Positions 1-55,622 of a stretch of DNA of 64,000 nt are shown here, piece by piece. The stretch is taken from positions 444,460 to 508,459 of the forward strand of contig CAYUQB010000001.1 of assembly GCA_964446735.1 (NCBI GenBank), given 5' to 3'. Made by a program: the position numbers and the translations under genes. The notes under the pieces are model-generated. The model had not been told where the DNA came from and ran no database searches. It was given only the letters and a program-made list of their open reading frames with translations. How positions within the stretch are numbered: position 1 is the stretch's first letter; each line of letters starts with the position of its first letter. Source of the DNA: an uncultured Candidatus Saccharibacteria bacterium (lineage in GTDB: Bacteria; Patescibacteriota; Minisyncoccia; Phycocordibacterales; Phycocordibacteraceae).

Positions 1-677
1 CGAAGCGGGAAAAGACCCAAGAAGAGCTGTTTCATCTCTTTAATGCACTCTACGACAACAATAAACAGATCATCTTTTCATCCGATCGGTCACCTGCCTC
101 GATTCCCGATATCGCTGACCGCGTGCGTGGGCGTCTTTCAAGCGGAATGACGGTCGACATCAGTGAGCCAGACCCCGAAAGCCGTATGGCTATTGTGCGT
201 AAAAAGGCCGCAATTCACGGGGTAAATCTCTCAGATGAGGTCGTAGAACACATCGCAACGTCAGTTGCCGGCTCTATCCGAGAGCTTGAGGGAGTTATCA
301 ACTCCATCGTCTGTCATACCCAGGTGAAAGGAACACCTCCCGACCTTGCTGAAGTGCGTCAGTCACTCCGCTCTTTCTCACGCCCAACAAAAACAGTCTC
401 GGTAAAACACGTAGTTTCTAAAGTTGCGGAGTTCTACGGAATCGATGAGGAGAGTATTTACGAGAAGACTCGTAGAAGGGAAGTGGTTCGACCACGTCAG
501 GTCATTATGTATATCTTGCGTGAGGATTTTAGTGTTTCCTATCCCACCATTGGAAACAAGTTGGGAGGGCGTGATCACACAACCGTTATCCACTCCTGTG
601 AGAAGGTGAAGCGTGAGGTGATTGCTGACGCTGATCTCGCTAAAGAAATTCAGGACATCCGTGGGTTGTTAGTATAA
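1..677 (+). CDS. dnaA: Chromosomal replication initiator DnaA, 5'-truncated by the window edge (C-terminal AAA+ and DNA-binding domains)
   Basis: Frame from nt 3 reads ...QEELFHLFNALYDNNKQIIFSSDRSP..IPDIADRVRGRLSSGMTVDISEPD... then ...VIMYILREDFSVSYPTIGNKLGGRDHTTVIHSCEKV (DnaA domain IV helix-turn-helix). dnaN follows immediately. Confidence 0.9.
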   Translation, partial: KREKTQEELFHLFNALYDNNKQIIFSSDRSPASIPDIADRVRGRLSSGMTVDISEPDPESRMAIVRKKAAIHGVNLSDEVVEHIATSVAGSIRELEGVINSIVCHTQVKGTPPDLAEVRQSLRSFSRPTKTVSVKHVVSKVAEFYGIDEESIYEKTRRREVVRPRQVIMYILREDFSVSYPTIGNKLGGRDHTTVIHSCEKVKREVIADADLAKEIQDIRGLLV

Positions 678-790
678 GTGGGGACAACACCTGAATACTC
701 CATGAACAAGACGTTGGCGACTATGGGGAGAACTGAGGAACAGCACCAGACCTATCCCCAGGTCTTCGGAGCGGGTGCACTTCTCCCCAG

Positions 791-799
791 TGTGGAAAA
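791..799. promoter_or_regulatory. DnaA-box-like 9-mer TGTGGAAAA (8/9 to TGTGGATAA) in the dnaA-dnaN spacer
   Basis: Seen directly in the sequence. A second weaker box, TTTTCCACC, is at 867-875. Confidence 0.3.
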
Positions 800-903
800 G
801 GAGTTTTCAACACATTACGAATTGGAGAGGACACAAAATAGTCTTCATCTAAGCTTCATAAAAGGGTTTTCCACCTATCAACAGGCCTAATAATAGTATT
901 CGT

Positions 904-2004
904 ATGGTTATCACTTTAGAAAAAAGAGAATTCGCTAATGCAGTGATGATTGTATCGAAATTCGCAGAACGACGGAGCGCAACACTCCCAGTTCTTTCCG
1001 GAATAGCCATCATTGCAGGAGACGATGGAATAAAACTGCGAGCAACAAATCTTGAGACCGGTATTGATTTGCGTGTGGAAGGGGTGATCAAAGATCCTGG
1101 AGTGATAGCACTCCCCGCAAACGTGTTACGAGAAATAACCTCGTCCTTCGGGGGATCAGGTTCTGTAGTAATCGACTACGCGGGTGAGACAGCGGTCATA
1201 ACCTCTGATAACGGCACAAGCACGCTCAAAACCCTCCCGTATGAGGATTTCCCCATCCTCCCACTTCCCGAGTCGCCACGGGCAAAATTTACGATCCCGG
1301 GCGATGCACTCCGGACACTCATAACGTCTGTGGTTTCTTGTGCGTCGACATCGACGGTGCGACCAGAACTTGCAAGCGTTCTCGTTTCAGCTGAAGGAGG
1401 GGTGGTTAAAGCTGTTGCGACTGATTCGTTTAGGCTTGCTGAGAAAAAACTCTCCCTTTCAGGAAAGATTCCTCCTTTTTCTATGCTGATTCCGGCAAAG
1501 AATGCACTCGATTTACTTTCAGCACTCCCGGAAGGTGATGTAGAAGTGGTGCTTGATGAGCATCAGTGCGCCTGTATGTGGGGAGAAGGGGTGCTGACGA
1601 CCCGATTGGTGGCGAATGCCTATCCTGACTATGCACAGATCATTCCGAAGCAATTTGTCTCCGAGGCAACCGTACTCCGGAAAGACCTGGAAGCAGGACT
1701 CAAGCGGGTTGCAGTGTTCTCGGATGCCTTCCAAAAGGTTCGTCTTGCCTGCTCACCTTCAGATAAAGAGATTCGGCTTGCGGCCCGCAATGCTGACATT
1801 GGTGAATCAAATGAGCATATTCCCGCATCTGCAACGGGAGACGCAATTGAACTTTCGTTCAACCATCGCTATCTCGCCGCACCGCTTTCGCTTATTGCCT
1901 CAGATAGCATCACATTCTCCGCAAGCGGAATCGGCCGTGCGGCCGTGCTTCGTGGTGCAGGTGATGCTTCGTTTCTATACCTCGTAATGCCGATGAATCA
2001 GTAG
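904..2004 (+). CDS. dnaN: DNA polymerase III beta sliding clamp
   Basis: 366 aa in the canonical position after dnaA, with a three-domain clamp-like sequence (MVITLEKREFANAV...LRATNLETGIDL...). Confidence 0.9.
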   Translation: MVITLEKREFANAVMIVSKFAERRSATLPVLSGIAIIAGDDGIKLRATNLETGIDLRVEGVIKDPGVIALPANVLREITSSFGGSGSVVIDYAGETAVITSDNGTSTLKTLPYEDFPILPLPESPRAKFTIPGDALRTLITSVVSCASTSTVRPELASVLVSAEGGVVKAVATDSFRLAEKKLSLSGKIPPFSMLIPAKNALDLLSALPEGDVEVVLDEHQCACMWGEGVLTTRLVANAYPDYAQIIPKQFVSEATVLRKDLEAGLKRVAVFSDAFQKVRLACSPSDKEIRLAARNADIGESNEHIPASATGDAIELSFNHRYLAAPLSLIASDSITFSASGIGRAAVLRGAGDASFLYLVMPMNQ

Positions 2005-4887: not shown

Positions 4888-5440
4888 CGCTGGTGCTTTC
4901 ATACCCACGAGCATTCGTGGCAACCGCCTGAACATCGTCCTGTTCGTCGAGGAATGTTAAAAGAAGTGTGAGCTTCTCTTCCTCGGCACCGCTGATGTCC
5001 ATGAGCGGTTCGTTAGGTGTGTGACGGCCGTCAGGGGATTTAGTGAACGCCCATGCGGCACTTCCTGGTGTGCCGAGCTCGTATCCATTTTTAGTAAGGA
5101 TGAGTTTAATTTCTTGTGTAGTGCGATTGCGACTATCGGTGAGGGCAGTGACTACGATAGCAATGCCGCCAGGACCATAAAGCTCATACACCACCTGTTC
5201 GAGATCTCCTGCCTCCTTACTGATGCCTTTAGCAACCGCACGATCAATATTATCTTTGGGCATGTTAGCGGCCTTTGCGCGCGCAATGATTGCCGCAAGA
5301 GTGGGGGAAGAAGTATTACCAGCAGTTTTCTTTGATTCCAGGGTTATTTCACGGGCGAATTTAGAGAAAGTGCGTCCCTTAGCAGCATCAGTCACTGCTT
5401 TTTGTCGTTTTATTTGGGCCCATTTGCTGTGGCCAGCCAT
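4880..5440 (-). CDS. yebC: YebC/PmpR family DNA-binding regulatory protein (short form)
   Basis: MAGHSKWAQIKRQKAVTDAAKGRTFSKFAREI... is the YebC N-terminal signature. It sits in the classic ruvC-yebC arrangement. Confidence 0.85.
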   Translation of the reverse strand: MAGHSKWAQIKRQKAVTDAAKGRTFSKFAREITLESKKTAGNTSSPTLAAIIARAKAANMPKDNIDRAVAKGISKEAGDLEQVVYELYGPGGIAIVVTALTDSRNRTTQEIKLILTKNGYELGTPGSAAWAFTKSPDGRHTPNEPLMDISGAEEEKLTLLLTFLDEQDDVQAVATNARGYESTSDE

Positions 5441-5443
5441 ACA

Positions 5444-6427
5444 CTAGGACTGTAGCAAATATCTTTTTCCCGTGTCAGTCAGTACACGCCCACGCGAGGA
5501 ACGCTCAATAAATCCAAGCCGAAGGAGATAGGGTTCGTATACGTTCTCAATAGTGTCAGGATCTTCATGCATCGCACTTGCAAGTGCTCGTACCCCAGCA
5601 GGTCCACCCTTGAATCCCGTTCGAAGGGTTTCTAGGTATCGTTGGTCGTCCTTTGTAAGACCAAGAGCATCAATACCAAAAAGCTGGCACGCTTCGTCGC
5701 ACACCGTGGGGGAAAGGTCTCGCTCGTGGACCTCAGCGTAGTCGCGTACCCGTTTCAAAAGCGCGTTGGCAACACGAGGGGTAGCACGACTGCGGCCAGC
5801 AATCCGTTCCACTACCGCAGCATCAGCTTCAACCCCAAGCTTATTCGCTGACCGAGAAATGATGGAGCGGAGGTCTTCGTCAGTGTAGAAATCTAGCTGG
5901 TATACACCGCCACCGAATCGACTACGCAAGGGACCTGAAAGTTGTGCGACGCGAGTCGTAGCACCGACGAGCATGAACGGAGGAAGTGCGAGCTCCACGG
6001 TGCGCGCAGATGGCCCCTTACCAAGCACGATATCAAGAGAGCCAGACTCAAGCGCGGGGTATAGCAACTCCTCAATCTTTCGTGAAAGTTGATGAATCTC
6101 GTCAATGAAGAGTACGGTGCCAGGTTCGAGGTTAGTGAGAATTGCGGCGAGATCGCCCGCACGTTCAATAGCGACCCCGGATGTGGTCTTAAGTGGGGCA
6201 TCGAGAGTAATTGCAATGAGATGCGCCAGCGTGGTCTTTCCAACTCCGGGTGGGCCATACAAAAGGACATGTTCAGGCATGTCACCGCGTCTCTTTGCGG
6301 CCTCAAGGAGCACTTTAATGTTGGCTTTTACATGCCCCTGACCCATGTATTCATCCCACAGGGTGGGACGAAGGGCAGAATCGAGCATAGGGTCGCGTAC
6401 TTTGACAGGATCGGGGGTACTTGACAT
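5444..6427 (-). CDS. ruvB: Holliday junction branch-migration helicase RuvB
   Basis: LRPTLWDEYMGQ...LLYGPPGVGKTTLAHLIA (Walker A), then the RuvB C-terminal winged helix. Confidence 0.9.
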   Translation of the reverse strand: MSSTPDPVKVRDPMLDSALRPTLWDEYMGQGHVKANIKVLLEAAKRRGDMPEHVLLYGPPGVGKTTLAHLIAITLDAPLKTTSGVAIERAGDLAAILTNLEPGTVLFIDEIHQLSRKIEELLYPALESGSLDIVLGKGPSARTVELALPPFMLVGATTRVAQLSGPLRSRFGGGVYQLDFYTDEDLRSIISRSANKLGVEADAAVVERIAGRSRATPRVANALLKRVRDYAEVHERDLSPTVCDEACQLFGIDALGLTKDDQRYLETLRTGFKGGPAGVRALASAMHEDPDTIENVYEPYLLRLGFIERSSRGRVLTDTGKRYLLQS

Positions 6428-6677: not shown

Positions 6678-8339
6678 TTAATTGCGCGGCAAATCGACAA
6701 CGCGCATCACTTCATCGAGAGAGGTTACCCCCGAAAGTGCCTTCAAGACGCCGTCTTGTGCCATCGTTAGATATCCTTGGCGGGTGACGTGCTTAGCGAT
6801 ATCACCTTCGCTCGGATTGTCGCGCAAGAACGTGCCCAACTCATCATCCATGAAAATGGCTTCGTAGAGGCCAATGCGTCCTTCATAGCCACTCTCATCA
6901 ACAGGCACCCACGTCATATCGAGTGATTGAGGGAGTAGCGTTTGATCGGTGAGTGATGAGAGTGCCTTTTCAGCAAAAGCGCGTTGCGCACCTTCAAGTG
7001 GAACCTGCTTTCTTTTATCGGGATGGAGTCTACGTACCAGGCGCTGTGCCATGGCGACTGATATAGCAGAACTAAATGATTTTGGATCAAGTCCTAAGTC
7101 AACGAGGCGGGGGAACGTACCTGCTGCGTTATTGGTGTGGAGCGTGGTGAATACGAAGTGTCCCGTAAGGGCAGCTTGAAGCGCGGTCTCGGCGACTTCC
7201 GCATCACGAATTTCACCGACCATAATCACGTCCGGATCCTGACGGAGTACTGATCGAAGTCCTGATGCAAATGTGTAGTCCTTGCCGTTTATTTGTGTCT
7301 GAACAATACCGGGGAGGTGGTACTCAATAGGGTCTTCGAGTGTGATGATTTTGATGTCAGGTGTGTGGATGCGTTTCAAAAAGGCATACAACGTGGTGGT
7401 CTTACCCGACCCAGTGGGGCCGGTCGTAAGGAGCATGCCGTTCGGGCGTTTGATTTCAGCTTCAAGTCGCGAAAGAAGCTTCGGGTGAATGCCCAAATCT
7501 TCAAAAGAAACTTGAATTGCTTCGGGATTGAGGATGCGCAGCACCACTGACTCGCCGTATCCTCCCGGAATAAGGGAGGTGCGGATTTCAATGTCACTTC
7601 CGGCAATTCCTACCGAGAATCGACCGTCTTGCGATCGATCCGTCACGTTCAGCTTAAGTCCGGAGAGTAATTTAATACGCGAGACCAGGCCATGATAGGT
7701 GTGTTGATCAAGGGTGTATGCGTCAGTAAGGATTCCGTCCAAGCGAAGACGCAAGCGCACATGTTCTTCCTCTGGCTCGATGTGTACATCAGACGCGCGC
7801 ATGGCAAACGCGGACGCAAGAATCTCTTCCAGTAGCTCCGAAGTTTGTGCACGAGTTCGCTTATTGAGAAGCTCATCCATATGCGCTGCGAAGCTCGGTA
7901 TGTCGGTCAGAGATTGCTTGAGATCGTTGAGGGCATCTGGCGAAAGCGTGAACACACCCGCCTCGCTTCCTGCTGCAAACGAAAGTTCCTCGTATTTCGC
8001 AAATGCTCGCGCCAGGCTTTTGTGCGAGACCATGAAGAGCTCAATGAGATACCCATCGCGTTCGAGTGATTGACGCAGCTCAATAAATTTTGGTGCTTCA
8101 GGAGAACGAACAGCGAGCGAGATTTTTTTACCCACCTTTGCAAACACAATCGCTTCTGCCTCGTGGGCGATAGGTTCAGGAATAATTCGAAGCGAATCTC
8201 CGTCAATGGGAGTAGTCGTGAGATCTACATACGTCGCTCCGTGCTTTTCGGAGAGCAGACGAGCGAGATCTTCTTCCTCGCGTTCACGAATAGCAGCAAG
8301 CTTCGCGTCCTCGGCGTCGGTATCAAAGGGGAGAGACAT
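6678..8339 (-). CDS. pilB: Type II/IV secretion system ATPase (GspE/PilB family), likely type IV pilus assembly ATPase
   Basis: Walker A LTTGPTGSGKTTTLYAFL; GEIRDAEVAETALQAALTGHFVFTTLHTNNAAGTFPRLVDLGL. Start placed at MSLPFDTDAED. Confidence 0.8.
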   Translation of the reverse strand: MSLPFDTDAEDAKLAAIREREEEDLARLLSEKHGATYVDLTTTPIDGDSLRIIPEPIAHEAEAIVFAKVGKKISLAVRSPEAPKFIELRQSLERDGYLIELFMVSHKSLARAFAKYEELSFAAGSEAGVFTLSPDALNDLKQSLTDIPSFAAHMDELLNKRTRAQTSELLEEILASAFAMRASDVHIEPEEEHVRLRLRLDGILTDAYTLDQHTYHGLVSRIKLLSGLKLNVTDRSQDGRFSVGIAGSDIEIRTSLIPGGYGESVVLRILNPEAIQVSFEDLGIHPKLLSRLEAEIKRPNGMLLTTGPTGSGKTTTLYAFLKRIHTPDIKIITLEDPIEYHLPGIVQTQINGKDYTFASGLRSVLRQDPDVIMVGEIRDAEVAETALQAALTGHFVFTTLHTNNAAGTFPRLVDLGLDPKSFSSAISVAMAQRLVRRLHPDKRKQVPLEGAQRAFAEKALSSLTDQTLLPQSLDMTWVPVDESGYEGRIGLYEAIFMDDELGTFLRDNPSEGDIAKHVTRQGYLTMAQDGVLKALSGVTSLDEVMRVVDLPRN

Positions 8340-8381
8340 AGGCGCATCATACCACCGCCTACTTACGGCTCCTTGGAATAC

Positions 8382-8434
8382 TTGACAATACTGGTAAAGT
8401 GTGTGTATAATAAAGGTCGGCAACAACTAGGAGG
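8382..8434 (+). promoter_or_regulatory. Near-consensus sigma70-type promoter (TTGACA-18 nt-TGnTATAAT) plus AGGAGG ribosome-binding site ahead of the GC-rich ORF
   Basis: TTGACA at 8382-8387, gtgtgTATAAT at 8401-8411, AGGAGG at 8429-8434, ATG at 8441. Confidence 0.45.
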
Positions 8435-8440
8435 TCCGCT

Positions 8441-9295
8441 ATGCGGCTCTACAACACGTTGGCTGTTCTTCTGAGTTCAGCCCTCTGCGGTGTCGCACAC
8501 GCGGCTACCGCCCCTGCGGCTCAGGCCGAAACCACGATCGCAGTCGACGCGTCCGTTGGGTGCGATCCCACCGGGATCGCGTTCGACACCAAGGACCTGA
8601 CGAAGGTCTACCCCTGCGGGTCCGAGACGGTCAGGCTCTCCAAGAGCACGACCGGCTACCGGATCTCCAAGGTGCAGACCCAGATCGTGGGCACCGCGCT
8701 CGCGCCGCCCAACATGCTCGCCTTCACGCAGCAGCCGTCGGCCCCGCCGGCGATCGCCGGTCAGGTCCTCCTGGCCGCCTGCAAGAAGACGGTGATGAAG
8801 GATTCGAACCGAGCGTCAGCCTGTCCGATGATCGCCAACAACAAGGTGGTCGCCTGGCAGTTCTACAACCGGGCTGGCGTCGCTATTCCCGGCGACGTGA
8901 CTCCGGATCCGCGCGGCACGACGGTGGAGGAGGTCCTCTCCTCAACGTCGCCCGTCGCCCGGCAGCAGGTCGCGAACGTCTCGGTTCCCGGCGGCAAATG
9001 CGCCGACGGGCTCGTCCATCGTCCCACGGCCGAAATGGTCGTGCGGACGTCGGAAGGGACTACCTGCGGCGCGGCCTACGTGAAGCAGCCCTCGATGGTC
9101 GGCCAGGTCCTGGGCGCCTCGGCGCTCATGCTCGTGTCCGGCTACGCCAATCGCATCGCCTACGGCGACGACGGCTACTATCATGGGGGCTACGGCAGCT
9201 ACTACCAGCGGCCATACAACTACAGCTCGGGCTCCTACTTCAACCTGGGCCGGCCCGGCGATCAGCCGTCCTGCGGCGGCTGCCAGCGGTACTAG
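8441..9295 (+). CDS. Hypothetical secreted Cys-rich protein with a Gly/Tyr-rich C-terminus, encoded in a high-GC island
   Basis: Signal peptide MRLYNTLAVLLSSALCGVAHA, about 8 Cys, and a C-terminal GYGSYYQRPYNYSSGSY. Local GC is about 65-70% with very high GC3, against roughly 50% in the neighbouring genes. Confidence 0.6.
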   Translation: MRLYNTLAVLLSSALCGVAHAATAPAAQAETTIAVDASVGCDPTGIAFDTKDLTKVYPCGSETVRLSKSTTGYRISKVQTQIVGTALAPPNMLAFTQQPSAPPAIAGQVLLAACKKTVMKDSNRASACPMIANNKVVAWQFYNRAGVAIPGDVTPDPRGTTVEEVLSSTSPVARQQVANVSVPGGKCADGLVHRPTAEMVVRTSEGTTCGAAYVKQPSMVGQVLGASALMLVSGYANRIAYGDDGYYHGGYGSYYQRPYNYSSGSYFNLGRPGDQPSCGGCQRY

Positions 9296-9317
9296 TAGCT
9301 GCTGGCTGAACTCAGTG

Positions 9318-9354
9318 AAGCGCTCGTCTTTCGGGACGGGCGCTTTCTGTTTTC
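9318..9354 (+). terminator. Rho-independent terminator after the GC-rich ORF (aagcgctcgtc-tttcgg-gacgggcgctt plus ctgttttc)
   Basis: Stem-loop followed by a T-tract, seen in the sequence. Confidence 0.45.
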
Positions 9355-9383
9355 ATGGGTACAATAAAAGCGTGGAAAAACAG

Positions 9384-9806
9384 ATGGTAGATCTTACAGC
9401 GCTCGAAACAGAGGCGAAGACGTTCGTTCGATCACTCACCCCTGCACGGACCGCAACCCTGGTGACGCTTTCTGGAGAACTTGGGGCAGGCAAAACTACA
9501 TTTACCCAGGCGGTGGCGAAAGCCGTCGGCATCGCGGAAGCGGTCACGAGTCCTACCTTTGTACTCGAGAAGATATATGAACTTCCAGCCGGACAAGTAT
9601 TTGAGCGTTTGGTACACATAGACGCGTATCGGCTTTCTGGTGGAGAGGAGCTTTCCGCACTGGGATTCTCTGAACTCATGTATGATCCAGGGAATCTGAT
9701 CGTACTTGAGTGGCCTGAAAAGGTAGCGGACACACTTCCTACTCCCACGATTGCCATAACGCTCACCGTGAATCCTGACGGGTCACGCACCCTTTCCTAT
9801 GCCTAA
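9384..9806 (+). CDS. tsaE: tRNA threonylcarbamoyladenosine biosynthesis ATPase TsaE (YjeE)
   Basis: LSGELGAGKTTFTQAVAKAVG...VTSPTFVLEKIYE...HIDAYRL is the TsaE signature. Confidence 0.75.
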   Translation: MVDLTALETEAKTFVRSLTPARTATLVTLSGELGAGKTTFTQAVAKAVGIAEAVTSPTFVLEKIYELPAGQVFERLVHIDAYRLSGGEELSALGFSELMYDPGNLIVLEWPEKVADTLPTPTIAITLTVNPDGSRTLSYA

Positions 9807-12189
9807 GACAACCAACAAGAAACGTCTCGTTATTCTGGACTCGCACGCGATCATTCATCGTGCGTATCACGCACTTCCTGACTTTACTGGACCGGATGGT
9901 CAACCCACGGGTGCGCTATACGGGCTGGCATCTATGTTGCTGCGCATTTTTGGGGACCTGAAGCCTGACTATATTGCTGCAGCATATGATCTTGCCGGTC
10001 CCACCGTGCGGCATGAAGCGTATGCGGAATACAAGGGAACCAGAAGCAAGACTGATGATGCGCTTATCGCCCAACTCACCACGTCGCGTGATGTCTTTGC
10101 TGCGTTCTCGGTCCCCATTTACGAGCGTGAGGGATTTGAGGCTGACGACATCATCGGCACCGTAACGAAACTGCTTGAGAAGGAGAAAGAACTCGAAATA
10201 GTAATTGCATCTGGTGACATGGATACGATGCAGCTCATCGATGGCAAGCGCGTGCAGGTGTATACCCTAAAGAAAGGACTCAACGACACTATTCTGTACG
10301 ACGAAGCCGCGGTACAGGAACGCTACGGATTCCCTCCAGAACTGATTCCCGACTATAAGGGTCTACGAGGCGACCCTTCGGACAACATTAAGGGTGTTCC
10401 CGGTATCGGCGAAAAGACCGCAACGGAGTTAGTTGCGAATTTTGGAACCATAGAATCGCTGTATGAAACTATTGCAAAGAATGAACAGGCACTCCTTGCG
10501 AAAGGAATCAAGCCACGGATTGTAAATCTTCTGAAGGAGCACGAAGAAGACGCGCGATTTTCAAAAGCGATTGCGACTATTCGCACGGATGCACGCATTG
10601 CATACGCACTTCCCAAAGAATGTTGGCTCGACCAAGTCTCTCTTCCGCGCGTTCTCGCGCTCTTTGATGAGCTCGGATTTCGGTCGCTTCGTGGTAGAGC
10701 GCAAACACTTATGGGTGGAGATGGAACCGAGGACGAGACGTATGAGGAAGCGGCTGCTGAAGCTGACATTGCACCTGCACGTCTTGAAGAAGCGAAAGTC
10801 ATGCTGTGGCTCCTGTGCTCTGACTTCACCAATCCAAATCTCGAGGACGTGCTCGGATATACGCGAACACAAACGTTTGATGAGGCGCACGCCGAACTTA
10901 CGCGACTTGTGGCAGAGACGGGACGACTCCAGAAAGTGTACGAAGACATCGAACATCCACTCATTGCGCTCATCGAAGCGATGAAGCAGCACGGAGTACT
11001 TATAGACCGAAACGTACTCAGCACACTTTCGAAGGAGTACCATGCGGATCTGGAAAAGATAGAAGCCCGGATATATGCGGCGGCAGGGCACGAATTCAAT
11101 ATCGCGTCACCCAAACAACTTGGCGATGTGCTGTTCGATGAACTTGAGCTCAAGGTTCCAGGAGCCAAGACCCAGAAGAAGACCGCGACCGGACAACGCT
11201 CAACTAAAGAGTCCGAGCTTGAGAAACTGCAGGACCTGCATCCTATTATCGGCGACATCCTCGAATACAGAGGTTTGGCAAAACTTCTTTCTACCTACAT
11301 TGATAACTTGCCGACTCTCCTAGACGATAAGGATCGATTGCATCCGCAGTTCCTCCAGTATGGAGCGGTCACGGGTCGTATGGCGAGTACAAATCCGGGA
11401 CTTCAGAACATCCCAATACGCACTGAACGGGGCCGGGCGATCCGAAACGCCTTCATCGCGCCTCCTGGGTACACACTCCTCGATCTCGACTACTCACAGA
11501 TTGAGCTACGCATTGCCGCAATCCTTTCGAAGGATGAAAAGCTCATTGGGATATTCAAATCTGGACGTGATGTACATCGCGAAGTTGCAGCTGCAGTTTT
11601 TGATGTCGCTCCGGAAACGGTGGACGCTGAGATGCGTCGACGAGCCAAAATTATCAACTTCGGCATTCTCTATGGCATGGGTGTGAATGCGCTCAAAACC
11701 CAACTTGGGACCTCTATGGCTGACGCCCACCGATTCTATGATGACTATTTCGCGACGTTCTCAACGCTCGCAAAATATCTAGAGTCGACTCGAGGGTTTG
11801 CCCGAAAAAACGGCTTCACTGAGACACTCTTTGGTCGCCGTCGTCAGTTTCCGGAAATGAAGTCTCCGCTCCCGTACGTTCGCGCGCAGGCCGAGCGCAT
11901 GGCTATTAATGCGCCGATTCAGGGAACCCAGGCAGACATTATTAAACTCGCCATGGTGCGGATCGATGAAATGCTTGTCGCTGAGAATCTTCGAGACGAG
12001 ACCCATCTTCTCCTCCAGGTGCATGACGAACTGGTATATGAAGTAGCGGAAGAGCGGCTTTCCATGCTTGCACCGAAAATTAAGAACATCATGGAAACGG
12101 TTCTTTCTGAAGATCAGACCGAGGGGGTACCGATCATAGCTGAAATGAAGGTAGGAAAGTCGTGGGGAAGTGCACAACCACTTGTCTGA
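9799..12189 (+). CDS. polA: DNA polymerase I (5'-3' exonuclease plus polymerase domains)
   Basis: N-terminal 5'-nuclease (LILDSHAIIHRAYHAL, GVPGIGEKTA). C-terminal pol A motifs (DYSQIELRIAA, RRRAKIINFGILYGM, QVHDELVYE). Confidence 0.9.
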   Translation: MPKTTNKKRLVILDSHAIIHRAYHALPDFTGPDGQPTGALYGLASMLLRIFGDLKPDYIAAAYDLAGPTVRHEAYAEYKGTRSKTDDALIAQLTTSRDVFAAFSVPIYEREGFEADDIIGTVTKLLEKEKELEIVIASGDMDTMQLIDGKRVQVYTLKKGLNDTILYDEAAVQERYGFPPELIPDYKGLRGDPSDNIKGVPGIGEKTATELVANFGTIESLYETIAKNEQALLAKGIKPRIVNLLKEHEEDARFSKAIATIRTDARIAYALPKECWLDQVSLPRVLALFDELGFRSLRGRAQTLMGGDGTEDETYEEAAAEADIAPARLEEAKVMLWLLCSDFTNPNLEDVLGYTRTQTFDEAHAELTRLVAETGRLQKVYEDIEHPLIALIEAMKQHGVLIDRNVLSTLSKEYHADLEKIEARIYAAAGHEFNIASPKQLGDVLFDELELKVPGAKTQKKTATGQRSTKESELEKLQDLHPIIGDILEYRGLAKLLSTYIDNLPTLLDDKDRLHPQFLQYGAVTGRMASTNPGLQNIPIRTERGRAIRNAFIAPPGYTLLDLDYSQIELRIAAILSKDEKLIGIFKSGRDVHREVAAAVFDVAPETVDAEMRRRAKIINFGILYGMGVNALKTQLGTSMADAHRFYDDYFATFSTLAKYLESTRGFARKNGFTETLFGRRRQFPEMKSPLPYVRAQAERMAINAPIQGTQADIIKLAMVRIDEMLVAENLRDETHLLLQVHDELVYEVAEERLSMLAPKIKNIMETVLSEDQTEGVPIIAEMKVGKSWGSAQPLV

Positions 12190-34470: not shown

Positions 34471-34545
34471 GGATCATATCCGAAACCACCACACGCTCCA
34501 TACGGGGCGTGTTTTGGTTTGACAGAGAAATAAGGGCGTACTATC

Positions 34546-34782
34546 ATGCGTTTATCCAAGGCCTGCGGGCCTTTTTTATTAGCGCTTACCTTGGCACTCA
34601 TGAAGGCATTTGCGACCTATCTTAAGAACGTCCGCGCCGAAATGGCACACGTGGTATGGCCCGACCGCAAACAGGCGGTTCTCCACACGGTGCTCATCAT
34701 TCTTATTTCCGCGTTGCTTGCGATAGTGATTGCCGTGCTCGACTACGCATTCACGGGAGTTGTTTCTCGCATCATCGGCTAA
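34546..34782 (+). CDS. secE: Preprotein translocase subunit SecE
   Basis: Sequence similarity (KNVRAEMAHVVWPDRKQAVLHTVLIILISALLAIVIAVLDY, single TM) and canonical position before nusG. Confidence 0.75.
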   Translation: MRLSKACGPFLLALTLALMKAFATYLKNVRAEMAHVVWPDRKQAVLHTVLIILISALLAIVIAVLDYAFTGVVSRIIG

Positions 34783-35384: not shown

Positions 35385-35807
35385 ATGGCAAAAGCAGTAA
35401 AGAAAATTAAGCTCCAGATTCCGGCGGGTAAAGCGACGCCGGCTCCTCCGGTGGGTACCGTCCTCGGTCCTGCGGGTGTGAACATTGGTGATTTCGTCAA
35501 TAAGTTCAATGAAGCAACCCGTGAACGCATGGGAGAGATCGTGCCGGTTGAGATGACGGTCTATGACGACCGCACCTTCTCGCTCGTCTACAAAGTGTCG
35601 CCCATGTCCCAGCTCATCTTGAAGGCTATTGGAGCAGATAAGGGTTCGGGCAAGACACCGTTTTCTAAAGTAGGAACACTCACGCGTGCGAAGGTTCGTG
35701 AAGTAGCCGAAAAGAAGATGCCTGATCTCTCAGCATCGTCAATCGAGGCTGCAGAGCGTACGGTTGAAGGTACGGCACGTTCCATGGGCGTTACCATCGA
35801 GAAATAA
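35385..35807 (+). CDS. rplK: 50S ribosomal protein L11
   Basis: [45 protein letters not shown]... Confidence 0.9.
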
Positions 35808-35816
35808 CCCATTACG

Positions 35817-35855
35817 AAAGAGGCCCTGGCTTCCCGCCAGGGCCTCTTTCGTTTA
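35817..35855 (+). terminator. Strong rho-independent terminator directly after rplK (aaagaggccctggc-ttcc-cgccagggcctcttt plus cgttt)
   Basis: 12-13 bp GC-rich perfect stem plus T-tract, seen in the sequence. Confidence 0.6.
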
Positions 35856-35865
35856 CTGTGAGCGC

Positions 35866-36609
35866 ATGGAGATAGAGAGCTTCAAAGTAGAAACCTTGCT
35901 TCCACCCAAGGATGATCTGCTCGCAAAAATACGAGCCTCTGCCCTCACTCTCAACGAGCATGATGTCGTTGCGATTTCCTCAAAGGTGGTGGCGATTGGA
36001 GAAGGAAGTGTTATTCCCATGGAAGGGGTGGTGCAGGACGAGTTGATTGCACAAGAATCAGATCAGTATTTAGAGCGTCGTGAGACACCGGGAGGGTTTG
36101 TCATGCACACGCTCAAGAATGGCACACTCATTCCAAATGCCGGTATTGATCCCTTCGCGGGGCATTATGTTCTGTGGCCAAGAGATCCGCAGAATAGTGC
36201 GGATGAACTGCTTGCTTGGTTCAAGACGGAGTATGGGATTGAACACTTATATCTGGTCATCACTGACTCACGGAGTGTGGTACTGCGTCGTGGCGTAGTT
36301 GGTATCGCAATCGCATGGGCAGGATTCGAACCAATCTACGACAACCGAATGCGTACCGATCTTCTCGGTAATCCAAGTAATGGGAGTCAGACCAATATTC
36401 CAGACGCCCTTGCCGCTGCGGCCGTGTACGTCATGGGCGAGGCCAATGAAGGCACGCCGCTCGTACGCATTCGTAATGCGCCGTACGTACAAAAGACACA
36501 GACCGGGCGCAAGAAAGAATTTAATACCTACACGTTCAGTATTGAGGAAGATATCTTTGCACCATTCCTTTCACGTGCACCGTGGAAGCAGGGTGCTACG
36601 GGCGGGTAA
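35866..36609 (+). CDS. CofE-family gamma-glutamyl ligase-like protein (F420-0:gamma-glutamyl ligase / FolC2-like), copy 1
   Basis: ...TLKNGTLIPNAGIDPF... (the NAGID motif of CofE-like proteins) and the overall CofE fold pattern. Converges on folA. Confidence 0.55.
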   Translation: MEIESFKVETLLPPKDDLLAKIRASALTLNEHDVVAISSKVVAIGEGSVIPMEGVVQDELIAQESDQYLERRETPGGFVMHTLKNGTLIPNAGIDPFAGHYVLWPRDPQNSADELLAWFKTEYGIEHLYLVITDSRSVVLRRGVVGIAIAWAGFEPIYDNRMRTDLLGNPSNGSQTNIPDALAAAAVYVMGEANEGTPLVRIRNAPYVQKTQTGRKKEFNTYTFSIEEDIFAPFLSRAPWKQGATGG

Positions 36610-55058: not shown

Positions 55059-55622
55059 TTAGGCAGGGTAGAGCTGGGCGAGTCGCCAGCGATTCTTGAT
55101 CCGGGAGAAGAACTCGTAGACCTCACGGAATAGACGAATCGCGAGCGGTTCCTCCGGATCGAAGGTCTCGATCCACCAGCACGGGACGACTTGATCGTGG
55201 GCGCGTACGACCGTGTTCGCAATGAACGCGAGCCGGCTGAAACGCCACGTCTCGACGACGAAAATAACTCGGTCGTAGATGATCCCAGCGCGTGCCTGCT
55301 CATGCAGGAAACGCAGAACCTCCTCGACCTCGCCGTGCGTGGTGAACTCCTCCGCCTCGCCACACTTGATGGTGGGATGGTGGAGGGCGGCATGATGCAG
55401 ATACTGGTGCATGATCCAGCCCATCGGCGCGCCCTTGAACTTCGGGCCAGCCCTCCCGGCCGGCGTGAAGATCGTGACGTTTGCCGAGCGAGTTTCCACC
55501 CACTTGTGTCCGTGCTTCAGCGCCGTTTCGCAGGCAAGAGCGGTCCGCGGTCCGCAGACCACATCGCCCTCCGGAGTCCACTCAAGGTCCCCGGCGATCG
55601 GTACGATAAGAACAGTGGCCAC
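55059..55622 (-). CDS. Hypothetical protein in a high-GC island (possibly DUF218/YdcF-like)
   Basis: 187 aa ORF at about 62% GC, clearly above its neighbours. The pattern VLIVPIAGD...GEAEEFTTHGEVEEV is reminiscent of DUF218 proteins, but assignment is weak. Confidence 0.45.
   Translation of the reverse strand: MATVLIVPIAGDLEWTPEGDVVCGPRTALACETALKHGHKWVETRSANVTIFTPAGRAGPKFKGAPMGWIMHQYLHHAALHHPTIKCGEAEEFTTHGEVEEVLRFLHEQARAGIIYDRVIFVVETWRFSRLAFIANTVVRAHDQVVPCWWIETFDPEEPLAIRLFREVYEFFSRIKNRWRLAQLYPA

What the first reader, a model, noticed from the sequence alone, without database searches (positions are those of the whole stretch)
8382..9354. High-GC island encoding a Cys-rich secreted protein under a textbook promoter
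GC over 8441-9295 is about 65-70% with extreme GC3, far above the roughly 50% of flanking housekeeping genes; the alternative frame reads as an Arg-rich artefact. The ORF has a signal peptide, about 8 cysteines and a Tyr/Gly-rich tail. It is preceded by TTGACA-18-TGnTATAAT plus AGGAGG and followed by its own terminator. This looks like a horizontally acquired, actively expressed module, possibly an exported effector or adhesive protein.
Basis: seen in the sequence. Interest (0 to 1): 0.6.

Follow-up and report, generated by a model that had tools for sequence, protein, structure and literature searches.

The report
GC-rich, hyper-structured mRNA for exported protein
The GC-rich "island" is real, but it is probably not foreign DNA: it is a fast-evolving exported-protein gene that sits in the same place in related ultra-small (CPR) bacteria, and its extra G and C at silent codon positions go with an unusually tightly folded messenger RNA.

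Summary
ORF 8441-9295 has 66.8% GC and 87% GC3, against a 52.4% window mean. It has the only 12/12 TTGACA-N18-TATAAT promoter in 64 kb, an AGGAGG site, its own terminator, a signal peptide, 9 Cys and a Gly/Tyr tail. Only the "TGn" extension is wrong.

The "horizontally acquired" reading is not supported. All detectable homologues lie in the same slot, pilB-like ATPase (-) | ORF (+) | tsaE-polA, in related Patescibacteria (Paceibacteria/Parcubacteria) contigs. Promoter and terminator are conserved, and no mobility genes lie nearby.

Across 55 distinct loci, the secreted-protein gene in this slot beats the local median GC3 in 49 and is the top-GC3 gene in 41. Background GC3 in those loci runs from 0.18 to 0.85.

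The excess is synonymous: 0.54 expected, 0.87 observed, z = 11. It comes with excess predicted mRNA folding. Against synonymous-codon shuffles, z is -4.1 here, -3.7 to -6.7 in three orthologues, and averages -2.4 in 16 other slot genes. Controls sit near 0.

A covarying 12-bp helix pairs codons 11-14 with the 3'UTR and closes the transcript.

Best reading: selection for a GC-rich, heavily paired, probably long-lived mRNA encoding a hypervariable surface protein. The protein's function is unknown.

The parts
6678..8339 (-). Left flank: pilB-like type II/IV secretion ATPase, transcribed divergently. It is the conserved left border of the slot.
   Evidence: Pfam T2SSE E = 1e-103. The same neighbour is present in L001 and L166, in the locus of P0002 (for which no DNA was available), and in most of L006-L085.
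8382..8411 (+). Sigma-70-type promoter: TTGACA, 18-nt spacer, TATAAT. It is not an extended -10.
   Evidence: 12/12 match, the only one in the 64 kb. TTGACA-N18-TATA(A/C)T is conserved upstream of orthologues in L001, L002, L003, L004 and L006.
8429..8434 (+). Shine-Dalgarno site AGGAGG, 6 nt upstream of the ATG.
   Evidence: Read directly from the sequence. GGAG-type sites sit at the same place in orthologues.
8441..9295 (+). CDS of 284 aa: exported, Cys-containing, Gly/Tyr-tailed protein of a small lineage-specific family. GC 66.8%, GC3 87%.
   Evidence: Coding status is supported by the conserved signal peptide and by 22 synonymous versus 16 non-synonymous codon differences between two close alleles, L003 and L167.
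8441..8503 (+). Sec-type signal peptide (residues 1-21, cleavage after AHA). Residues 1-29 with cleavage after AQA is also possible.
   Evidence: Sequence and hydropathy. The MR..LAALSSLA..A.A pattern is conserved in the family alignment.
8471..8482 (+). 5' arm CTGAGTTCAGCC (codons 11-14) of the long-range closing helix.
   Evidence: Perfectly complementary to 9304-9315 (pair I6). It is in the MFE and centroid folds, with base-pair probability 0.91. It covaries in orthologues.
8531..8680 (+). N-terminal beta-rich domain (residues 31-80, includes Cys41 and Cys59). This is the only confidently modelled part.
   Evidence: AlphaFold2 pLDDT 72-86 here against 47 overall. About 35% identity to HYR/Ig-like repeats of a T9SS adhesin, P0003. 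The evidence is weak.
9092..9148 (+). Hydrophobic helix (residues 218-236, SMVGQVLGASALMLVSGYA), followed by the conserved NRIAYG motif. It may be a membrane anchor or an amphipathic helix.
   Evidence: Kyte-Doolittle mean 1.31, which is borderline for a membrane span. AlphaFold2 predicts a helix at 219-244. The segment is conserved in the family.
9149..9292 (+). Gly/Tyr-rich, low-complexity tail ending in the conserved PSCGGCxR(Y) motif.
   Evidence: Slot proteins across the clade have tails enriched in G, Y and R.
9304..9315 (+). 3' arm GGCTGAACTCAG of the closing helix, starting 9 nt after the stop codon and lying just 5' of the terminator.
9317..9353 (+). Intrinsic terminator: 13-bp stem plus a T-rich tail.
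   Evidence: GAAGCGCTCGTC...GGGCGCTTTT is conserved in L001, L002 and L018.
9375..9806 (+). Right flank: tsaE, overlapping the start of polA (9799-12189). It is the conserved right border of the slot. The start is probably GTG at 9375; the first ATG is at 9387.
   Evidence: Pfam TsaE E = 8.5e-32 and DNA_pol_A E = 1e-137. GGTACAAT-N6/7-GTGGAAAA is conserved in relatives.

Best explanation
WHAT IT IS. Nothing here suggests a recently imported island. This is a resident, lineage-specific gene occupying a conserved slot between a pilB-like ATPase and tsaE-polA in a clade of Patescibacteria (Paceibacteria/Parcubacteria-like CPR bacteria). It is a monocistronic unit: consensus sigma-70 promoter, 5'UTR of roughly 22-29 nt (the transcription start is inferred) with AGGAGG, a 284-aa ORF, and an intrinsic terminator.

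THE PRODUCT. It is a Sec-exported, probably disulfide-bonded protein. It has a small N-terminal beta domain, a disordered middle, a hydrophobic helix and a Gly/Tyr tail ending in CGGC. It evolves far faster than its neighbours and is mosaic among relatives, as expected for a surface-exposed protein.

SHOWN.
- The GC excess lies mainly at synonymous sites.
- It is a conserved property of the gene in this slot, independent of each genome's GC.
- It coincides with predicted mRNA secondary structure well beyond what protein sequence, codon usage and GC3 alone give.
- That structure includes a covarying helix between codons 11-14 and the 3'UTR that closes the whole coding region into one domain.

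INFERRED.
- Synonymous sites are under selection for a GC-rich, densely paired sense transcript.
- The most likely benefit is protection from ribonucleases, giving a long functional mRNA half-life and sustained output of an abundant envelope protein.
- Tuning of translation or export rate is the alternative benefit.

The biochemical role of the protein (adhesion or envelope structure) is a guess.
For: SYNTENY AND HOMOLOGY.
- An exhaustive HMMER search found only 6 hits besides the query itself. Five are full-length or C-terminal relatives and one is a repeat adhesin.
- Every family relative is encoded between the T2SSE ATPase and TsaE-PolA.
- Weaker family members sit in the same slot in L006-L010.
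- The promoter and terminator are conserved.
- No mobility genes, tRNA or flanking direct repeats are present.

CLADE-WIDE GC3 EXCESS.
- In 55 distinct loci with a signal-peptide ORF upstream of tsaE, slot GC3 exceeds the locus median in 49. The mean excess is +0.175 (Wilcoxon p = 1e-9).
- The slot gene is the top-GC3 gene in 41 of 55. The fit is slotGC3 = 0.36 + 0.61 x background.

SYNONYMOUS ORIGIN.
- Expected GC3 is 0.54 against 0.87 observed (z = 11.4).
- Both C- and G-ending codons are enriched.
- The L11, S20 and EF-P genes are not shifted.

RNA STRUCTURE.
- z = -5.9 against dinucleotide shuffles.
- Against synonymous-codon shuffles: -4.1 in the window, and -4.5, -6.7 and -3.7 in L003, L010 and L001.
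- Five control genes from the window give -0.67 to +0.29.
- Sixteen further slot genes average -2.4, against -0.09 for matched polA segments.
- The energy excess is larger on the sense strand than on the antisense strand in 8 of 10 genes.

CLOSING HELIX.
- It is the top or joint-top helix of the whole mRNA in 7-9 of 12 family loci.
- 9 of 14 pairs show changes on both sides, and 0 of 500 shuffles reach this.
- It is in the MFE in 6 of 7 transcripts, with base-pair probability 0.89-0.99 in five.

PROTEIN.
- Family identity is 23-60% although PolA is 78-83% identical to the window's, and similarity is mosaic.
- The Cys count is even in 82% of slot proteins.
- Synonymous versus non-synonymous codon differences are 22:16.
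Against: - All RNA structure is predicted. Nothing was probed, and no expression or half-life data exist for this uncultivated organism.
- In E. coli, translation rate correlates strongly with ORF-wide mRNA structure (PMC5318159, abstract). From my own knowledge of that work, more structure goes with less translation, so structure here could damp rather than boost output.
- The helix alignment was registered by hand, which favours pairing.
- The helix is not detectable in L007, L008 or the wider clade.
- Loci are phylogenetically related, so the 55 loci are not independent observations.
- Some slot genes show little excess structure (L065 +0.85, L043 -0.9, L018 -1.0).
- The slot is empty in 35 loci, so the gene is dispensable or mobile on long time scales.
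- This window's allele has the highest slot GC3 (0.87) and one of the largest excesses over background. Its best homologue is only 38% identical, so allelic replacement from a GC-rich relative is not excluded for this genome.
Confidence: 0.6

Rival explanations
1. Recent allelic (xenologous) replacement. The resident slot gene was overwritten by homologous recombination, through the conserved promoter/signal-peptide and terminator flanks, with an allele from a GC-richer member of the same clade. It has not yet ameliorated.
For: - GC-rich relatives with GC3 0.85-0.89 exist at 74-80% PolA identity (L009, L012; L004 has slot GC3 0.86).
- The family is mosaic: L002 and L166 share 60% identity over the N-terminal 180 residues but have different C-termini, and L007 and L009 share 84% over the last 25 residues.
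- GC3 is lower in the first 30 codons (0.60-0.67) than in the body, where it reaches 1.0 over 60 consecutive codons.
- The window allele has the highest slot GC3 seen.
Against: - The bias is directional. Slot GC3 exceeds background in 49 of 55 loci and the regression only crosses equality near GC3 0.9. Random exchange would instead regress toward the clade mean.
- Exchange does not explain excess folding relative to synonymous shuffles or the covarying helix.
- No donor-like sequence was found. The best homologue is 38% identical.
Confidence: 0.15
2. GC-biased gene conversion at a recombination hot spot. Frequent recombination in a diversifying surface-protein gene drives AT-to-GC fixation at silent sites without any selection on RNA.
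For: - The gene is hypervariable and mosaic.
- G- and C-ending codons are enriched rather than a specific 'optimal' set, and ribosomal-protein genes are not shifted.
- Recombining bacterial genes are reported to have higher GC3, mainly through non-optimal GC-ending codons (PMC4450053).
Against: - gBGC raises GC3 but should not arrange synonymous codons into more pairing than GC3-preserving shuffles give (z of -3 to -7).
- It should not maintain compensatory changes in a 5'-3' helix.
- It should not favour the sense strand.
- An excess of +0.35 in GC3 is much larger than I would expect from gBGC in bacteria. This is my own judgement; I did not extract effect sizes from the paper.
Confidence: 0.12
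3. Invertible DNA switch (a partial intragenic inverton). The 12-bp inverted repeats at 8471-8482 and 9304-9315 are recombination sites. Inversion of the 821 bp between them would disconnect the gene body from its promoter and signal peptide, leaving MRLYNTLAVLLSSASSY-stop, so expression of the surface protein would be phase-variable.
For: - A perfect 12-bp inverted repeat flanks almost the whole ORF.
- Repeats at the same positions recur with covariation in orthologues.
- Surface-protein genes are typical inverton targets, and intragenic invertons are described (bioRxiv 10.1101/2023.03.11.532203).
Against: - No invertase or recombinase lies within about 8 kb or in the conserved neighbourhood of relatives.
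- All 12 or more assembled orthologues are in the ON orientation.
- G.U pairs extend the helices in L001, L002, L006 and L010. These would be mismatches in DNA repeats.
- The repeat sequence differs between lineages rather than keeping a fixed recombinase site.
- This rival does not explain gene-wide GC3 or the excess structure.
Confidence: 0.07
4. The transcript is mainly, or additionally, a structured non-coding RNA. A GC-rich structured RNA in a lower-GC genome, with its own promoter and terminator and an rRNA-like 5'/3' closing stalk, would make the ORF secondary or spurious.
For: - Folding z-scores are in the range of structured RNAs.
- A closing helix flanks the body.
- A GC-rich island in a lower-GC genome is, from my own knowledge, a classic ncRNA signature.
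Against: - Codon periodicity is strong: GC1/2/3 = 0.60/0.53/0.87.
- A Shine-Dalgarno site, ATG and Sec signal peptide are conserved in all orthologues.
- Protein motifs are conserved (GLxHEPT, NRIAYG, SCGGC) while the DNA diverges.
- Close alleles show a synonymous excess.
- The Cys count is even in 82% of slot proteins.
- There is no Rfam hit.
- The structure is not positionally conserved. Only general structuredness and the closing helix are.
Confidence: 0.05
5. Assembly chimera or contaminating fragment inserted into the contig.
For: Only the sharp compositional change itself.
Against: - The same gene order, with homologous proteins and conserved promoter and terminator, appears in independent assemblies from many samples (JGI, ENA, Logan, GenBank MAGs).
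- The high-GC stretch corresponds to the ORF. The promoter and Shine-Dalgarno site upstream lie in lower-GC sequence, and a terminator follows.
Confidence: 0.01

Closest known systems
Compositionally atypical genomic islands (horizontally acquired genes)
   Same: A sharp local GC and GC3 deviation, an orphan-like protein, patchy presence (the slot is empty in 35 related loci), and a self-contained promoter and terminator.
   Different: - Homologues are found only in the same syntenic slot of the same clade.
- No integrase, tRNA or direct repeats are present.
- The deviation is directional and conserved across genomes with background GC3 of 0.18-0.85.
- It is GC-richer than the host, whereas acquired genes are typically AT-richer (PMC4450053).
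ORF-wide mRNA structure units, and CDS structure that controls functional mRNA half-life (Burkhardt et al. 2017, PMC5318159; Mauger et al. 2019, PMC6883848)
   Same: The secondary structure is organised around one ORF. Synonymous sites carry structural information. A highly structured CDS is linked to expression output.
   Different: - Here the effect is extreme for one gene, conserved across a clade, and strong enough to create a +15-point GC island.
- A covarying 5'CDS-3'UTR helix closes the ORF.
- The direction of the effect on expression is unknown. From my own knowledge of the E. coli work, more ORF structure goes with lower translation efficiency.
5'-3' end pairing in bacterial mRNAs (for example S. 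aureus icaR, where the 3'UTR pairs with the Shine-Dalgarno region), and rRNA precursor processing stalks. Both are cited from my own knowledge; no paper was read.
   Same: A long-range helix between the two ends of a transcript, placed immediately upstream of the terminator.
   Different: - The 5' arm lies in codons 11-14 of the signal peptide, not on the Shine-Dalgarno site.
- No RNase III dependence or regulatory outcome is known.
- The arms covary with the signal-peptide codons.
Intragenic or partial invertons (bioRxiv 10.1101/2023.03.11.532203)
   Same: Short inverted repeats, one inside a CDS and one outside it, flank most of a surface-protein gene.
   Different: No invertase is nearby, only one orientation is seen in assemblies, and G.U-type 'mismatches' are tolerated.
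Antigenic-variation expression sites with atypically high GC (Borrelia vlsE, Neisseria pilE). Cited from my own knowledge.
   Same: A hypervariable surface-protein gene with a constant promoter and N-terminus, mosaic alleles, and locally elevated GC relative to the genome.
   Different: No silent cassettes or paralogous fragments occur in the other 63 kb of the window. The rest of the genome could not be searched.
HYR/Ig-like adhesin repeats (Pfam PF02494)
   Same: Residues 29-83 align at about 35% identity to eight tandem repeats of a T9SS adhesin that carries HYR, PKD and CHU_C domains. AlphaFold2 models this region as confident beta structure.
   Different: The ORF itself gives no Pfam hit at E <= 1. 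Only about half a domain length aligns, and the domain is absent from several family members.

Membership tests
Horizontally acquired genomic island | Base composition and codon usage atypical for the host genome | tested here: met
   GC 66.8% against 52.4%, GC3 0.87 against about 0.5, z = 11.4 against expectation.
Horizontally acquired genomic island | Absent from the orthologous position in close relatives (an insertion relative to an ancestral empty site) | tested here: not met
   Every locus that spans the slot and has PolA at least 73% identical (L001, L006-L012, L086-L089) carries an ORF there. The L001-L010 proteins are detectable family homologues of the window protein. Empty slots appear only at 72% identity or below.
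Horizontally acquired genomic island | Mobility signatures: integrase or transposase, tRNA target, flanking direct repeats | tested here: not met
   The neighbours are DnaN, PBP1, RuvC, YebC, RuvB, PilB, TsaE, PolA, NUDIX, LTD, Mur ligase and RuvA. The nearest tRNA is 4.3 kb away. No flanking direct repeat exceeds chance.
Horizontally acquired genomic island | Closest homologues in a phylogenetically distant donor lineage | tested here: not met
   The only homologues in 1.84 billion representatives are in the same slot of related Patescibacteria contigs. A word-index search of 5.8 billion clusters returned only the query itself.
Sec-exported (extracytoplasmic) protein | N-terminal signal peptide with a basic n-region, a hydrophobic h-region and an AxA cleavage site | tested here: met
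   MR-LYNTLAVLLSSALCGV-AHA|A. Hydropathy over residues 6-24 is 1.59. The pattern is conserved in all family members. No dedicated signal-peptide predictor was available.
Sec-exported (extracytoplasmic) protein | Paired cysteines consistent with disulfide bonds | tested here: inconclusive
   There are 8 Cys after the signal peptide here. 82% of 55 slot proteins have an even Cys count, and Cys makes up 2.5% against 0.7% in the window proteome. Bonding itself was not tested.
mRNA under selection for secondary structure | Folding energy lower than synonymous-codon-shuffled versions that keep protein, codon usage and GC3 | tested here: met
   z = -4.1 in the window. z = -3.7 to -6.7 in three orthologues. 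The mean is -2.4 in 16 other slot genes. Controls range from -1.7 to +1.7 with a mean near 0.
mRNA under selection for secondary structure | Compensatory (covarying) base changes in a specific helix | tested here: met
   9 of 14 pairs change on both sides and 0 of 500 shuffles reach this. Pairing is 66.7% against 22-43% when the partner is slid. Caveats: only 9 sequences, and the register was set by hand.
mRNA under selection for secondary structure | Structure demonstrated experimentally and shown to affect half-life or yield | not testable with these tools
   This needs DMS or SHAPE probing and decay or expression assays of wild-type against recoded alleles.
Inverton (invertible DNA switch) | Inverted repeats flanking the invertible segment | tested here: met
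   A 12-nt perfect inverted repeat at 8471-8482 / 9304-9315. Equivalent repeats occur in orthologues.
Inverton (invertible DNA switch) | Site-specific recombinase (invertase) encoded nearby | tested here: not met
   None within about 8 kb on either side, and none in the neighbourhood of L001. The rest of the genome was not available.
Inverton (invertible DNA switch) | Both orientations present in a population | not testable with these tools
   Reads are unavailable. All assembled orthologues are in the ON orientation.
HYR / Ig-like adhesion domain (PF02494) | Significant match to the family profile | tested here: not met
   No Pfam family at E <= 1. There is only pairwise similarity to repeats of P0003 (E = 6e-5 for a single comparison). 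Foldseek against the PDB found nothing at E < 0.4.
Known RNA families (Rfam 15) | Match at gathering threshold | tested here: not met
   Only 9 tRNAs were found in the window, and nothing at 8.4-9.4 kb.

The most novel reading that the evidence does not exclude
The slot transcript may represent an undescribed bacterial mRNA architecture. In this reading it is a 'closed', GC-enriched, ultra-structured messenger whose silent sites have been remodelled across a whole CPR clade, strongly enough to mimic a foreign genomic island. The purpose would be to make one surface-protein mRNA exceptionally long-lived, or to give the RNA a second, non-coding role. If so, compositional islands in small genomes cannot be read as horizontal transfer by default. 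CPR bacteria would then use RNA structure, rather than codon optimisation, as their main lever for high expression.
Probability: 0.3. Interest if true: 0.8.

Novelty: new variant of a known kind. Interest (0 to 1): 0.6.

Why it matters
1. It is a clean counter-example to the routine inference that an atypical-GC gene is horizontally acquired. Here the anomaly is inherited, directional and tied to RNA folding.
2. It points to gene-specific selection on synonymous sites for mRNA structure, strong enough to shift a gene's GC by 10-20 points and to persist across genomes whose background GC3 runs from 0.18 to 0.85. Such a case would make the role of CDS structure in bacterial mRNA stability directly testable with recoded alleles.
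3. The product is a hypervariable, exported, Cys- and Gly/Tyr-rich protein encoded beside a type IV pilus ATPase in ultra-small, probably host-dependent bacteria. That makes it a plausible surface or attachment factor and a candidate marker for strain-level diversification.

Tried and rejected
- Pfam, NCBIfam and PDB sequence searches of the protein gave no hits.
- The word-index homology search returned only the query itself. Repeating it with the family alignment added one protein, P0009.
- Exact look-up of the window's own slot protein and PolA found nothing on record. The source genome is therefore known only as a 516,752-bp NCBI contig.
- AlphaFold2 with the 6-sequence alignment gave pLDDT 47, usable only for residues 31-80. 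Foldseek of that model against the PDB found nothing meaningful, with best E = 0.47.
- I tested for a general 5'CDS-3'UTR complementarity across all 57 slot genes of the wider clade. It was not significant (Mann-Whitney p = 0.17). The helix is a feature of the window's subfamily only.
- I suspected an inverted (OFF) copy in L018, because the longest ORF there was on the minus strand. The real gene is 4899-5486 (+) in the ON orientation.
- I searched for silent cassettes or paralogous fragments in the rest of the window and found none.
- Generic translational selection was rejected, because L11, S20 and EF-P are not GC3-shifted and both G- and C-ending codons rise.
- An extended -10 (TGn) promoter was rejected.
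- The metagenome scan with PolA yielded no relative closer than 74%, so it added no new subfamily members.
- The contig carrying P0002, the closest homologue, could not be read as DNA.
Full report
**1. The observation**

The ORF at 8441-9295 (+) has 66.8% GC, with codon-position GC of 0.60, 0.53 and 0.87. The window averages 52.4% (sd 3.0% for windows of this size). This is the highest-GC stretch in the 64 kb. The flanking genes have GC3 of 0.49-0.52.

- A 12/12 TTGACA-N18-TATAAT promoter lies at 8382-8411. It is the only one on either strand of the window.
- AGGAGG sits 6 nt before the ATG.
- A 13-bp terminator stem with a T-rich tail follows at 9317-9353.
- The claimed TGn extension is not there.
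- The protein has a Sec-type signal peptide, 9 Cys (8 after the signal peptide) and a Gly/Tyr-rich tail.
- Given its amino acids and the window's codon usage, expected GC3 is 0.54 +/- 0.03 and expected GC is 55.8%. About a quarter of the GC excess is therefore compositional and the rest is synonymous (z = 11.4).

**2. Where it comes from**

Pfam, NCBIfam and PDB sequence searches gave nothing. A word-index search of 5.8 billion protein clusters returned only the protein itself, from a 516,752-bp NCBI contig.

An exhaustive HMMER search of 1.84 billion representatives found five real relatives (P0002, P0004-P0007) and one repeat adhesin. Family members are 23-60% identical to one another. They share these features:

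- the signal peptide
- a GLxHEPTxE motif and an SYEKPPS-like motif
- a hydrophobic segment followed by NRIAYG
- a Gly/Tyr tail
- usually a terminal SCGGCxR

Every one of these relatives is encoded in the same place: YebC-RuvB-[T2SSE ATPase, minus strand] | ORF | TsaE-PolA. The promoter (TTGACA-N18-TATA(A/C)T) and the terminator sequence are conserved at the DNA level.

A scan of species-representative genomes with the window's PolA returned 80 loci. Nearly all are titled as Patescibacteria-group MAGs (Parcubacteria, Paceibacteria/Paceibacterota, Kaiserbacteria, Taylorbacteria, or 'Saccharibacteria' in some TPA records). A few carry generic or other names. The closest has 81% PolA identity. A metagenome scan added 80 more loci, none closer than 74%.

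The family profile detects the slot ORFs of L006-L010. The slot is occupied in every locus that spans it and has PolA at least 73% identical (L001, L006-L012, L086-L089). It is empty, with a gap of 60-260 nt, in 35 more distant loci.

Within 8 kb on either side there are only housekeeping genes: DnaN, PBP1, RuvC, YebC, RuvB, PilB-like, TsaE, PolA, NUDIX, LTD, Mur ligase and RuvA. There is no integrase, transposase or invertase. No tRNA is adjacent, and there are no meaningful flanking direct repeats.

The data therefore favour a resident, syntenic, lineage-specific gene over a freshly imported island or an assembly chimera.

**3. The GC anomaly belongs to the slot, not to this genome**

Fifty-five distinct loci carry a signal-peptide ORF immediately upstream of tsaE.

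- The ORF's GC3 exceeds the median of the other genes of its locus in 49.
- The mean excess is +0.175 (Wilcoxon p = 1e-9).
- The ORF is the single most GC3-rich gene in 41. Each locus has about 9 other genes on average.
- Examples (background to slot): 0.28 to 0.63 (L065), 0.33 to 0.70 (L079), 0.41 to 0.78 (L028), 0.38 to 0.78 (L153), 0.49 to 0.87 (window).
- The regression is slot = 0.36 + 0.61 x background. It meets equality only near 0.9.

The bias is directional. Random allele exchange among lineages of different GC would instead pull values toward the clade mean.

In the window, both C- and G-ending codons rise: 87% G or C at four-fold sites, against 53% in the background. The L11, S20 and EF-P genes are not shifted, so ordinary expression-linked codon bias is not the cause. 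No other secreted protein in the window shows the effect.

**4. The excess GC goes with excess RNA structure**

The inferred transcript (8418-9353) folds to -457 kcal/mol, z = -5.9 against dinucleotide shuffles.

Codon periodicity could inflate that score. I therefore shuffled synonymous codons among positions of the same amino acid, which keeps the protein, codon usage and GC3.

| Sequence set | z against synonymous shuffles |
|---|---|
| Window slot gene | -4.1 (0 of 60 shuffles as stable) |
| L003, L010, L001 orthologues | -4.5, -6.7, -3.7 |
| Five other window genes (controls) | -0.67 to +0.29 |
| Sixteen further slot genes, across the clade | mean -2.4 (ten with no shuffle as stable) |
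| Length-matched polA segments from the same loci | mean -0.09 |
| polA segment with GC3 0.85 (L009) | +0.94 |

The last row shows that the null model is not biased by high GC.

The energy excess is larger for the sense strand than for its reverse complement in 8 of 10 genes. The means are 29 and 20 kcal/mol. This points to the mRNA rather than to DNA palindromes.

**5. A closing helix**

Codons 11-14 (CTGAGTTCAGCC, 8471-8482) are perfectly complementary to GGCTGAACTCAG (9304-9315). That 3' arm starts 9 nt after the stop codon and lies just before the terminator.

- I scanned each whole mRNA for the longest helix with the first ~30 nt of its 3'UTR. The signal-peptide site was the top or joint-top hit in 7-9 of 12 family loci.
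- The arm sequences differ between lineages: AGCCTGACAGC in L003, GAGTCTGGCCA in L010, and AGTTTGGCC with a G.U pair in L001.
- On a hand-registered alignment of nine sequences, 9 of 14 pairs show changes on both sides. None of 500 shuffles reaches this. Pairing is 67%, against 22-43% when the partner is slid by 1-3 columns.
- The helix is in the MFE of 6 of 7 transcripts, with base-pair probability 0.89-0.99 in five.
- It is not detectable in L007 or L008, nor as a general property of the wider clade.

**6. The protein**

AlphaFold2 with six sequences is confident only for residues 31-80, a small beta unit containing Cys41 and Cys59. That region aligns at about 35% identity to eight HYR/Ig-like repeats of a T9SS adhesin. 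It does not reach any Pfam threshold. Foldseek found nothing.

Residues 218-236 form a borderline hydrophobic helix. The tail is predicted to be disordered.

Two close alleles (L003 and L167) differ at 22 synonymous and 16 non-synonymous codons, which indicates purifying selection on a real protein.

Family members are 23-60% identical, while PolA from the same loci is 78-83% identical to the window's. Similarity is also mosaic: L002 and L166 share N-termini but not C-termini, and L007 and L009 share 84% of the last 25 residues.

Across the clade the slot proteins are small, carry a Sec or lipoprotein signal, are Cys-rich (2.5% against 0.7%), have an even Cys count in 82%, and have Gly/Tyr/Arg-rich tails. 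This profile fits a surface-exposed, rapidly diversifying envelope protein. Its actual function is unknown.

**7. Explanation and rivals**

Best supported: synonymous sites of this gene are selected for a GC-rich, densely paired sense transcript closed by a 5'-3' helix.

The most economical benefit is ribonuclease protection and a long functional half-life for an abundantly made envelope protein. This is comparable to the link between CDS structure and half-life reported by Mauger et al. (PMC6883848). However, translation efficiency in E. coli tracks ORF-wide structure (PMC5318159), so the sign of the effect needs an experiment.

Rivals:

- Allelic replacement from a GC-rich relative remains possible for this particular genome, but it cannot explain the directional clade-wide bias or the excess structure.
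- GC-biased gene conversion (PMC4450053) fits the hypervariability, but not the structure or the covariation.
- An inverton using the 12-bp repeats lacks an invertase, no inverted copy is seen, and G.U pairs are tolerated.
- A non-coding RNA is contradicted by the strong coding signatures.
- An assembly chimera is excluded by the recurrence in independent assemblies.

**8. Verdict**

What is there is a new variant of a known kind: selection on mRNA structure, strong and persistent enough to imitate a genomic island, in a novel exported-protein family of CPR bacteria.

Noticed in passing
window 9354-9390 (and the equivalent place in L001-L010): A conserved GGTACAAT box lies 6-7 nt upstream of a GTG (GTGGAAAA...) that extends the tsaE reading frame. 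This suggests that tsaE-polA is transcribed as a leaderless mRNA starting at about 9375, right after the slot gene's terminator. The first ATG, at 9387, is probably not the start.
   Followed up: partly
window 8340-8368, minus strand: Upstream of the pilB-like ATPase start (ATG at 8339 on the minus strand) the sequence reads ...GGCGGTGGTATGATGCGCCT-ATG. This is an extended -10-like TGGTATGAT only 6 nt from the start codon, with no Shine-Dalgarno site. The stretch (CATCATACCACCGC on the plus strand) is conserved in relatives. pilB may therefore also be leaderless, whereas the slot gene has a 5'UTR with a strong Shine-Dalgarno site.
   Followed up: no
window 55059-55622 (-): This is a second, milder GC-rich gene: 187 aa, GC 0.62, GC3 0.77, local GC up to 65%. 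It has no signal peptide and no Pfam hit. I did not test whether it shares the excess-structure property.
   Followed up: partly
window 34519-34547 (+): The only other near-consensus promoter in the window (TTGACA-N17-TATCAT, 11/12). It lies upstream of the ORFs that precede the L11/L1 ribosomal protein genes at 35385-36609.
   Followed up: no
window 123-2004: The window begins with the C-terminal part of a DnaA-like ORF, identified by eye from the sequence. DnaN follows and was confirmed with Pfam. The slot gene therefore lies about 8 kb from the probable replication origin. RuvC, RuvB and RuvA are all within 8 kb of it.
   Followed up: partly
window 9195-9204 / 9293-9302 and CDS positions 753-764: A second long complementarity (12 bp counting one G.U pair; exact inverted repeat GCAGCTACTA / TAGTAGCTGC) joins the Tyr-rich tail codons to the double stop codon region (TAGTAG). 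It competes with nothing in the MFE and may be chance.
   Followed up: no
L016, L024, L089; L030, L094; L067, L069: In more distant relatives the slot holds other small secreted-protein families, some with C-terminal hydrophobic anchors or lipoboxes. The window family profile does not detect them (E >= 0.1), yet most share the GC3 excess. Either the gene diverges beyond recognition, or the slot is repeatedly refilled.
   Followed up: partly
record titles of L009, L015, L016 and others: Many TPA_asm MAGs that are clearly close to Parcubacteria/Paceibacteria loci (PolA 72-80% identical to the window's) are titled 'uncultured Candidatus Saccharibacteria bacterium'. L007 is titled 'Bacillota bacterium' and L073 'Nitrospira sp.'. 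These are probably mislabelled bins or contaminating contigs.
   Followed up: no
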